From Eledone cirrhosa (lineage: Eukaryota): a stretch of DNA of 64,000 bases. Positions 58,851 to 60,694 of this stretch are shown here, piece by piece. The translations under genes were made by a program, and so were the position numbers. The stretch is taken from the NCBI GenBank assembly GCA_964016885.1, contig OZ024762.1, positions 21,700,001-21,764,000 of the forward strand. The letters run 5' to 3'. Every line of letters begins with the position of its first letter. Positions within the stretch are counted from its first letter, which is position 1. Under the pieces are notes generated by a model. It was not told the origin of the DNA, made no database searches, and saw only the letters and a list, made by a program, of their open reading frames with translations.

Positions 58851-59158
58851 ATTAGTGTTGGATGATTAAAGCGTTGGATGCAGTAGGCCGTATGAGCACT
58901 CCATGCTCTCATAGAGCAGAGTATGTTATCACAGAAAAAAAGAGAATGCGACGAATGGAATTTATTGGACATATTACAATCGTTTCTCTGGCGACCCTAT
59001 ATAGGAAAATCTGCTTCGTAGAATCAAGACGTATCTGATTCAGAGTCAGGTTCGATCATCACATCGATCGTGCCTCGAGCTGGTCGCCAGAGAAACGATT
59101 GTAATATGTCCAATAAATTCCATTCGTCGAAACACTGATTCTCTTTTTTTCTGTGATA
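58851..59158. mobile_element. PLE tail-to-tail remnant; hammerhead 59028-59110 (+) with a deletion in the core
   Basis: Inverted arms ~58927-58996 / 59082-59158; gacgtat CTGA...GAAA cgattg TA atatgtc; same family as 51191. Confidence 0.75.
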
Positions 59159-59299
59159 TATATTTTTATGTATATATATATATGTGAGTAATATTGAACA
59201 ATAAAACTATGCATATATCAGATAAGTAGCACTCAACAGTTGGTAGAACTGGAGTATATATTAAAGAAGAAATTAAAAGATGGTTAAAAAGGTTCCATA

Positions 59300-59369
59300 T
59301 ATTTTATTATGCGCATTTCGAAAACATCATCATCCTGGGACAAAAATTGTGTTCTCATCAGATAAAATA
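59300..59369 (-). ncRNA. Type I hammerhead ribozyme (left arm of the 127-bp inverted repeat 59263-59389 / 59445-59571)
   Basis: Reverse complement of 59465-59534 with one substitution. Confidence 0.85.
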
Positions 59370-59464
59370 AGGTAACATGATATGAGGCCAACAGGAAAGT
59401 GCAAAGTCATATGTAGACTTTGCACTTGTTGGCAAGTGTTTTTAGGCCTCATATCATGTTACCT

Positions 59465-59534
59465 TATTTTATCTGATGAGAACACAATTTTTGTCCCAGG
59501 ATGATGTTGTTTTCGAAATGCGCATAATAAAATA
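59465..59534 (+). ncRNA. Type I hammerhead ribozyme, intact core, palindromic minimal stem III
   Basis: tattttat CTGATGA gaacacaa...ttgttttc GAAA tgcgca TA ataaaata; predicted cleavage after 59526. Confidence 0.88.
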
Positions 59535-59566
59535 TATGGAACCTTTTTAACCATCTTTTAATTTCT

Positions 59567-59597
<31 letters not shown>

Positions 59598-59676
59598 CCA
59601 CCACCCCACTCTCAAGAGCGTGAAACTAATAAACATTTGTTCGTACTGCCTCTCTGTTTTGTTCCCGTTCAATTTT

Positions 59677-59717
<41 letters not shown>

Positions 59718-59907
59718 GGAAATCAGTAAAATTGAATCTCTGGCGGTTTGCAAGTAAATTCGGCCTACTTATATGAAGTGATGAGTTAGCAAAGCACTCG
59801 ATAAGATAGGTCTCAGAGTTATAACATACGTTTAAATAGCTTGACAAATCGGACATTGTGGTAGGCGAAACTAACACACAATATATAGCAAAGTTACGAT
59901 AGAACTA

Positions 59908-59963
<56 letters not shown>

Positions 59964-59987
59964 GTAATAAACAACATAAGGCAATTA

Positions 59988-60047
59988 TTCCATTTACCAG
60001 TGGTTTCTTAAAAGCAAAAGGTTTTGCTTTCAATCCTCAGAATGAAA
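59988..60047 (-). ncRNA. Type I hammerhead ribozyme, intact
   Basis: Minus strand: tttcatt CTGAGGA ttgaaagcaaaa cc ttttgcttttaa GAAA ccactgg TA aatggaa. Confidence 0.85.
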
Positions 60048-60050
60048 AAA

Positions 60051-60110
60051 TCCTGATTCTGAGGATTGAAAGCAAAACCTTTTGCTTTTAAGAAACCACT
60101 GGTAAATGGA
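60051..60110 (+). ncRNA. Type I hammerhead ribozyme (right arm of the inverted repeat ~59958-60043 / 60056-60141)
   Basis: att CTGAGGA ttgaaagcaaaa cc ttttgcttttaa GAAA ccactgg TA aat. Confidence 0.8.
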
Positions 60111-60694
60111 ATAATTGCCTTATGTTGTTTATTACATAATAATAATTAAGCTCTGTTGCTTACATAGAGCACTCTTTTTTCCTGGACTTTTCCGACGGAA
60201 TTACTTCATTTATATATATATTTATATATATATATATATATACAAATATAAATTTATACTTCATTTATATATACATTTATATATATATATATATATACAA
60301 ATATAAATTTAGCGAGAATCGCGGGTGGAAATGAGCGAAAAGCAACTTCCATATTGTGCAGACAAGCGCTCCATGCATATGAAGGGATAGCAGAGCTAGA
60401 AGCATATATATATATATGTATAGTCTTTTAAGACTATACAGAGCATTTGATGTTATTCCAAATTGAAGGATGAGTGTTTCAAACTTTGTTTTATCATGAG
60501 TTAAAGGTCTATAGATTTTTCCATGGATTTTACTAAATTCTGTGGATGAATTTGTATCCTGATTCTCTTTTGAGATGAGTTTGAGTTATTTTTCCTAAAT
60601 CTTTCGTTAACTACTTTTCCCATCTTGACGTTATAGTCGCATATATGTTATAGAATGCCGTTAGCTTCTTGCTAAAACAATCTCTATACGTCTC

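What the first reader, a model, noticed from the sequence alone, without database searches (positions are those of the whole stretch)
58851..60405. Hotspot of stacked tail-to-tail PLE termini with mirror-image ribozymes on both strands
Seen in sequence: within 1.55 kb there are three inverted-repeat cassettes (58927-59158; 59263-59571 with 127-bp arms; 59958-60141 with ~85-bp arms) and three more fragments (59598-59681, 59715-59880, 60305-60405), each separated by (TA)n. Two cassettes carry a full hammerhead on each strand. In each cassette exactly one arm carries an extra 70-80-nt extension containing the bulged-hairpin motif. Inference: several PLE families repeatedly target the same (TA)n tracts. 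A read-through transcript in either direction would contain a ribozyme that competes with a long hairpin, which could act as an ADAR or Dicer substrate.
Basis: partly seen in the sequence, partly recalled or inferred. Interest (0 to 1): 0.7.

Follow-up and report, generated by a model that had tools for sequence, protein, structure and literature searches.

The report
Stacked two-armed Penelope retrotransposon insertions
This is a pile of short pieces of six ribozyme-bearing repeat families inserted in TA repeats, three of them back-to-back mirror pairs from Penelope-type jumping genes, whose lopsided ends suggest the enzyme likely copies one RNA into both sides of a DNA cut; nothing shows a regulatory role.

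Summary
The three inverted repeats are real. They are not tail-to-tail: each hammerhead reads from the centre outwards, so the arms are joined 5'-to-5'. Each cassette is one of many hundreds of genomic copies of a Penelope-like element (PLE); parents with RT, GIY-YIG and Hydra-clade motifs were found for all three. In copies taken in genome order, 76 of 76 resolved inverted insertions have the tail on exactly one arm. In 34 of 57 the untailed arm reaches further 5' than the tailed one, and both arms usually share their source alleles. This fits two priming events at two fixed start sites on one source RNA better than simple snap-back. The layout (head-to-head inverted copy, one-sided tail, (TA)n target, hammerheads on opposite strands) is already in print, and this scan found the two-armed pattern before on other DNA of this genome. 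Only cassette B has complete ribozymes on both arms. In a read-through RNA the hairpin is predicted to win outright, so there is no switch, and no RNA data exist. The stack is dense but not unique (3 of 173 loci equal it).

The parts
58851..58926 (-). Family A tail (between inferred RT start sites 1 and 2), with bulged hairpin starting at 58922
58927..58996 (-). Family A tailed arm, 5'-truncated, holds only the 3' half of the hammerhead; 8-nt deletion
58997..59001 (.). 5-nt junction insert of cassette A
59002..59158 (+). Family A untailed arm, starts at the family's common 5' end (about -168); hammerhead core lost by a deletion after 59038
59183..59262 (-). Family B tail, with bulged hairpin starting at 59255
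59263..59408 (-). Family B tailed arm; type I hammerhead C3 at 59361, predicted cleavage after 59308; 14-nt deletion near the junction
59406..59571 (+). Family B untailed arm; 3-nt overlap with the other arm at the junction; hammerhead C3 at 59473, predicted cleavage after 59526; palindromic helix III
59598..59680 (+). Family D solo 3' terminus; other copies carry a minimal hammerhead just upstream; parent ORF not found; lacks the tail hairpin motif
59715..59910 (-). Family E solo 3' terminus of a 618-nt non-coding unit with a direct terminal repeat and a U3-A8 hammerhead-like fold further upstream (not in this copy); hairpin starting at 59819
59958..60055 (-). Family C untailed arm; full type I hammerhead, C3 at 60040, predicted cleavage after 59995
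60056..60141 (+). Family C tailed arm; hammerhead C3 at 60059 with helix I cut to 3 bp
60142..60208 (+). Family C tail, with bulged hairpin starting at 60150
60201..60310 (.). Local 55-bp tandem duplication spanning the end of tail C, a TA tract and the end of F
   Evidence: sequence
60305..60405 (-). Family F solo 3' terminus of a non-coding unit with a direct terminal repeat, similar in places to E; hairpin starting at 60396

Best explanation
The three palindromes are back-to-back pairs of short 5'-truncated copies of Penelope-like retrotransposon ends inserted in (TA)n, and each pair likely arose in one event in which both ends of the cut DNA primed reverse transcription on the same source RNA. 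Inferred mechanism: the GIY-YIG nuclease (probably as a dimer) cuts both strands of a TA tract. One 3' end primes at start site 1, giving the untailed arm; the other primes 70-90 nt downstream at site 2, giving the tailed arm. Each cDNA runs 5' for a variable length, often to a common stop about 167 nt upstream of site 1 (likely the RNA's 5' end). The two cDNA ends are then joined with 0-9 nt of overlap or a short insert. The ribozymes are passengers from the element's pLTR. Solo pieces D, E, F are one-sided events. The stack grows because every insertion leaves TA tracts on both sides as new targets. Shown: the anatomy, parents, one-tail rule, non-nesting and shared alleles. Inferred: the cutting, priming, single-RNA and joining steps.
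For: Parents with RT, Zn linker and GIY-YIG: B, C, A. One tail in 37 of 37 resolved B, 20 of 20 A and 20 of 20 C pairs (19 after one duplicate); never two. The untailed arm reaches more than 10 nt further 5' in 22 of 37 B and 12 of 20 A pairs, the reverse in 10 and 3; in 7 pairs the tailed arm is tail only. In L331 a short tailed arm abuts a 2.7-kb untailed arm that starts in the ORF. At subfamily sites the arms agree in 32 of 39, 15 of 17 and 20 of 21 cases, against 0.16, 0.07 and 0.09 for shuffled pairings. L211 arms differ at 0 of 535 and L213 at 1 of 535 sites, against 12-13 between the two insertions. 5' ends fall at -170..-160 in 19 of 74 B and 16 of 40 A arms. In vitro, a Poseidon PLE cleaves and extends both strands, starts at two sites that bound the tail, uses uncleaved RNA and is predicted to be a dimer (PMC11167929).
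Against: Both polarities of nesting could also come from a hairpin intermediate that is resolved by the nuclease on either side. 10 of 77 diagnostic sites are discordant (7 in B), and the diagnostic alleles were picked as shared in at least 2 copies, which favours concordance; for A the best shuffle reached 0.87 against 0.88 observed. Three of 40 top-ranked copies scored no tail on either arm (one has a tail remnant). Shared alleles show the same source locus or subfamily, not the same RNA molecule. Most sampled copies are solo or unresolved (43 B and 22 A rows scored solo). Target duplications are hidden in the microsatellites; one 14-bp case was seen by eye (L140/L141). The in vitro data are for another clade, and there the start sites were not homologous to the target, while here both sites sit at short AT-rich matches to (TA)n.
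Confidence: 0.7

Rival explanations
1. Self-priming or fold-back: one strand is copied, folds back and copies itself, and the nuclease then trims the hairpin at site 1 so that only one arm keeps the tail.
For: Proposed for head-to-head PLE palindromes in PMC3846280 (passages); PMC8557442 ascribes the tail to EN-mediated resolution. It explains shared alleles and the small palindromes at some junctions (L126).
Against: Plain fold-back needs one arm nested in the other, which fails in 34 of 57 pairs. A rescue needs jumps of up to 1.4 kb (L162) or about 2.5 kb (L331), and both polarities. Only 14 shared variants are private.
Confidence: 0.15
2. Twin priming as above, but with two RNA molecules (one per protomer), mostly from the same active source locus.
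For: 10 of 77 discordant diagnostic sites. Large overlaps would need strand displacement on a single RNA. In L288 a B-like minus arm abuts a D plus arm.
Against: It does not explain why one arm always starts at site 1 and the other at site 2 (76 of 76), unless the dimer is asymmetric. Concordance is far above random pairing.
Confidence: 0.1
3. The stack is a selected RNA device: ribozyme versus long hairpin, an ADAR or Dicer substrate.
For: 127-bp and 86-bp near-perfect arms would form dsRNA if transcribed.
Against: The hairpin is predicted to sequester the ribozyme fully (pair probability 0.0000). Four of six families have no complete ribozyme here. Arms across copies decay. Similar stacks occur elsewhere.
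Confidence: 0.03
4. Foldback or MITE-type DNA transposons, or assembly chimeras.
For: Near-perfect terminal inverted repeats in TA. The B junction of this locus was not seen in 4 other runs, which is inconclusive.
Against: Centres differ in each copy and the ends are asymmetric. Arms continue into PLE ORFs. Arms differ by indels. Opposite-strand joints of these families occur in independent contigs and raw reads.
Confidence: 0.02

Closest known systems
Hydra-clade PLEs (Craig et al. 2021, PMC8557442; section 11 and supplementary table rows read, including Hydra-1_Obim)
   Same: C-terminal GIY-YIG, CxCX5C linker, no CCHH, CxxC and CxH around E/N, DKT, RWK in family C, canonical hammerheads, (TA)n insertion.
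   Different: Unit B is about 3.2 kb and A and C have long 3' regions (paper: generally under 3 kb). B has RWI, not RWK. Tails are 70-90 nt, not 30-40. No tree with reference Hydra sequences was built.
Typical EN+ PLE insertion: inverted 5'-truncated copy with a one-sided tail (PMC8557442 Fig. 2 legend; PMC3846280 passages)
   Same: Head-to-head inverted copy, optional tail on one end, microhomology at junctions.
   Different: Here both halves are mostly pLTR-sized; the one-tail rule, non-nesting and shared alleles are counted, and argue against the self-priming model offered in PMC3846280.
PLE minimal hammerheads (Cervera and de la Pena 2014, PMC4209133; parts 1-2 of 4 read)
   Same: Type I fold with short palindromic helix III; the paper already reports dual hammerheads 100-700 bp apart on opposite strands, and the U3-A8 variant.
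   Different: Different host and families; no cleavage was tested here.
Poseidon PAc in vitro system (Frangieh et al. 2024, PMC11167929; parts 1-2 of 4 read)
   Same: Both strands cleaved and extended, two start sites bounding the tail, a stem-loop at the start, uncleaved RNA as template.
   Different: Other clade; the paper does not link this to inverted genomic pairs or to one site per arm.
L1 twin priming giving 5' inversions (recalled, no call)
   Same: Two primers on one RNA, inverted arms joined at their 5' ends.
   Different: L1 arms do not overlap and the second start is variable; here both starts are fixed and the arms often overlap.
Animal non-LTR retrozymes (bioRxiv 10.64898/2026.07.22.740005, abstract, introduction and part of methods read)
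   Same: E and F are non-coding units with direct terminal repeats and the same tail hairpin; E has a hammerhead-like fold.
   Different: No tandem array or circular RNA is shown here; A, B and C come from coding PLEs.

Membership tests
EN+ Penelope-like element (A, B, C) | RT and GIY-YIG in one ORF contiguous with the terminus | tested here: met
   B: L209, L210; C: L213, L211; A: L331, L332, L334. The copies are decayed. Pfam gave only a sub-threshold GIY-YIG hit (E 0.0013) for 1 of 4 peptides, so this rests on motifs and alignment.
EN+ Penelope-like element (A, B, C) | pLTR partial tandem, inverted 5'-truncated copy, one-sided tail | tested here: met
   L209 direct repeat 985-1503/4152-4683.
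EN+ Penelope-like element (A, B, C) | Type I hammerhead in the pLTR | tested here: met
   B and C by pattern search. A only as a variant read by eye in other copies. Cleavage not tested.
Hydra clade | CxCX5C linker, CCHH absent, CxxC/CxH around E and N | tested here: met
   Alignment A1 and against the definition.
Hydra clade | DKT and RWK motifs | tested here: inconclusive
   DKT in A, B and C; RWK in C, RWI in B, not seen in A.
Hydra clade | RT phylogeny groups with Hydra references | not tested
   No reference sequences were available as tool sequences.
MITE / foldback DNA transposon | Fixed symmetric TIRs around a conserved interior, fixed TSD, DDE parent | tested here: not met
   Centres differ per copy, ends are asymmetric, parents encode RT.
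Non-LTR retrozyme (E, F) | Non-coding unit with a hammerhead, in tandem copies | tested here: inconclusive
   E: 618-nt unit, partial tandem, U3-A8 fold. F: direct terminal repeat; the script found no hammerhead in 11 of 11 copies, only a candidate read by eye.
Non-LTR retrozyme (E, F) | Circular RNA intermediate | not testable with these tools
   No RNA run listed.
PLE (D) | Parent ORF | tested here: inconclusive
   Minimal hammerhead upstream in other copies (by eye); no ORF found upstream in the one copy scanned (L289).

The most novel reading that the evidence does not exclude
PLE inverted insertions follow a strict rule that reveals the mechanism: one protein complex primes both ends of a double-strand cut on one RNA, always using start site 1 on one side and site 2 on the other, with a conserved bulged hairpin between the sites as the recognition element across coding and non-coding families. 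That would explain the long-unexplained inverted pLTR and one-sided tail, and replace the self-priming model.
Probability: 0.55. Interest if true: 0.62.

Novelty: new member of a known kind. Interest (0 to 1): 0.4.

Why it matters
As a locus it is ordinary transposon debris. Its value is as evidence on mechanism. How PLEs make inverted repeats and one-sided tails is named as open in PMC8557442 and PMC11167929. The counts here (one tail always, non-nested arms, shared source alleles, fixed 5' stop) separate the published self-priming idea from two-ended priming and give a precise in vitro test. In practice, thousands of such short palindromes would be misannotated as MITEs or microRNA hairpins (Rfam gave sub-threshold miRNA hits), and they are a potential source of dsRNA if transcribed.

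Tried and rejected
Rfam on the window and the region: no hammerhead in the region, only sub-threshold hairpin hits. Pfam on 4 ORF pieces: no hit above threshold. I first read the elements as Nematis-type from memory; the Hydra definition fits better. I first judged the C hammerhead as lacking helices I and II; a second register gives a complete fold. Test for an edited RNA template: 0 of 14 private shared variants were A>G, no support. Co-clustering of A, B and C elsewhere: 0 exact-pattern hits against 1.0 expected in 173 loci, so no general co-targeting is shown. The first stack count had a faulty complexity filter and was redone; the count favours this window because its families were fetched on purpose. 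Automated chaining for family C was confounded by microsatellites, so C was scored only on pairs with the exact pattern in both arms; 10 of those 20 loci were fetched because they held a divergent pair, and L214 may be two events. Tail MFE z-scores were weak (-0.1 to -2.6), so the hairpin rests on the motif, not on energy. Sequencing runs: no RNA holder listed. The locus junction of B was not covered in 4 runs and no piece spanned the stack: no verdict on polymorphism or the empty site. Literature searches for a twin-priming model of PLE inversions listed no such paper; the library lacks most subscription papers.

Full report
Observation. The three inverted repeats are at the stated places: 127-bp arms with 1 mismatch (B), 86-bp arms with none (C), and 21+48-bp arms split by an 8-nt deletion (A). 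A pattern search for type I hammerheads finds four cores. B has one on each strand, with 8-bp helix I and palindromic helix III. C has one on the minus strand with 7-bp helix I and 12-bp helix II, and one on the plus strand with helix I cut to 3 bp. A has none: its core is deleted and the other arm is too short. All read from the centre outwards, so the arms are joined at their 5' ends and the 3' ends face the TA tracts. In the three 100-hit lists I counted 54 divergent neighbour pairs within 10 kb and 1 convergent (L124/L125, a mirror duplication around a TA tract).

Families. The window lies in a 3.0-Gb genome. Exact 24-29-nt patterns occur 1695 (A), 695 (B) and 4021 (C) times, with 0 control hits. 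The best copies are palindromes too, but each has its own centre, so the cassette is made anew at each insertion and does not move as a unit. [quoted passage not shown] The motifs match the Hydra clade as defined in PMC8557442, which lists (TA)n preference and a cephalopod member. An earlier scan note gave me the Hydra lead; no tree was built. D is the 3' end of a family with a minimal hammerhead upstream. E and F are 3' ends of non-coding units with direct terminal repeats; E is 618 nt with a U3-A8 hammerhead-like fold. A, B, C, E and F share a bulged hairpin in the tail whose upper stem differs in sequence among families: 5 hits in the region, 0 in 2000 shuffles, 4 more in the window.

Rules of the inverted insertions. 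I sampled copies in genome order along the largest contig: 87 B loci, 45 A loci and 61 C loci. All 37 resolved B pairs and all 20 resolved A pairs have the tail on exactly one arm. Left out were 6 B and 4 A pairs with an unresolved partner, one spurious B pair and one duplicate; L078 counts as tailed because it runs on into the ORF, and L097 has a partial tail. All 20 C pairs with the pattern in both arms also have one tail (19 distinct). Among 40 top-ranked A and B copies, 37 have one tail, 3 none and 0 two. The untailed arm reaches more than 10 nt further 5' in 22 of 37 B and 12 of 20 A pairs; the reverse holds in 10 and 3; 5 and 5 are equal. In 7 pairs the tailed arm is tail only. In all three window cassettes the untailed arm is the one that reaches further 5' (by about 95 nt in A, 13 in C, under 10 in B). 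Junctions lie within 9 nt of flush in 30 of 37 B and 19 of 20 A pairs (BLAST-based). 5' ends pile up at -170..-160 from site 1 in 19 of 74 B and 16 of 40 A arms.

Source of the two arms. Paired arms share non-consensus bases about 6 to 11 times more often than shuffled pairings, above all 500 shuffles in each family (before removing duplicates). I then dropped 2 duplicates, repeated rows and 8 loci judged not to be true partners (not checked one by one). In the remaining set, subfamily alleles agree in 32 of 39, 15 of 17 and 20 of 21 cases against 0.16, 0.07 and 0.09; the allele choice favours agreement, and for A one shuffle reached 0.87. Arms differ by 4.0%, 5.5% and 1.9%, so they are not kept identical. 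Long C palindromes differ at 0 and 1 of 535 sites within, and 12-13 between; L212 is weaker, 7 of 272 within against 9-10.

Mechanism. The head-to-head inverted copy, the one-sided tail and the (TA)n bias are described (PMC8557442, passages), as are hammerhead pairs on opposite strands (PMC4209133). PMC3846280 explains the palindromes by self-priming (passages). Plain fold-back needs nested arms and fails in 34 of 57 pairs. Two primers, one at each of two fixed sites, explain both polarities, tail-only arms and the one-tail rule, and agree with PAc, which cuts and extends both strands from two sites bounding the tail on uncleaved RNA (PMC11167929). I give this 0.7, a hairpin resolved by the nuclease 0.15, and two RNAs 0.1. 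That the -167 stop is the transcript start is an inference. Three searches listed no paper stating this model, within the library's limits. This scan's earlier notes reached the same reading on other DNA of this genome; they are not independent support.

Hotspot and function. Six TA-bounded repeat pieces lie in 1.6 kb; 3 of 173 comparison loci reach six and 10 reach five or more. Exact patterns of the other two families were found 0 times near anchors against 1.0 expected, so the stack is an upper-tail accumulation. In a read-through RNA the hairpin is predicted to take all hammerhead pairs (probability 0.0000; -149 to -235 kcal/mol), so 'competition' is not expected. No RNA run was listed. 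Independent DNA runs show opposite-strand joints for these families but did not cover this locus's B junction.

Verdict. Real, mostly known PLE anatomy in new Hydra-type families. Worth noting as countable evidence for two-ended priming, not as an RNA device. Interest 0.4.

Noticed in passing
window 60417-60697: A seventh TA-bounded repeat piece next to the stack, found in 8 other fetched loci; family not identified.
   Followed up: partly
window 58090-58760: Looks like a decayed LINE fragment ending at the stack; a contig of run X4 continues differently after 58746, a possible lead to an empty or ancestral site.
   Followed up: no
window 16741, 17144, 17684, 51150: Four more copies of the tail hairpin motif, in other TA-bounded repeats.
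   Followed up: no
window 14893-15183: Another long inverted repeat around a TA tract (Rfam sub-threshold miRNA hits).
   Followed up: no
window 30211-33927 and 1209-1610: 59-bp minisatellite with 63 copies at 98% identity, and a 61-bp array of 6.6 copies.
   Followed up: no
L288:1430-1584: A minus arm of a B-like family directly abuts a plus-strand D terminus: a possible mixed-family two-armed insertion.
   Followed up: no
L140/L141 (duplicate L144/L145): Family C palindrome in non-microsatellite DNA with an apparent 14-bp target duplication.
   Followed up: partly
L124:1000-2300: Mirror duplication centred on a TA tract with two tailed C arms facing each other, the only convergent pair seen.
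   Followed up: partly
L211, L213: Family C palindromes of 4.9 and 6.3 kb whose compared coding stretches differ at 0-1 of 535 sites: very young insertions.
   Followed up: partly
L223, L224, L229, L203, L214, L216: Several further PLE families (YVDD and YRDD types) nested next to the sampled insertions.
   Followed up: no
family A copies L094, L101, L106, L107, L114: Subfamily with the hammerhead core changed at position 4 but with compensatory changes in helix II (read by eye).
   Followed up: no
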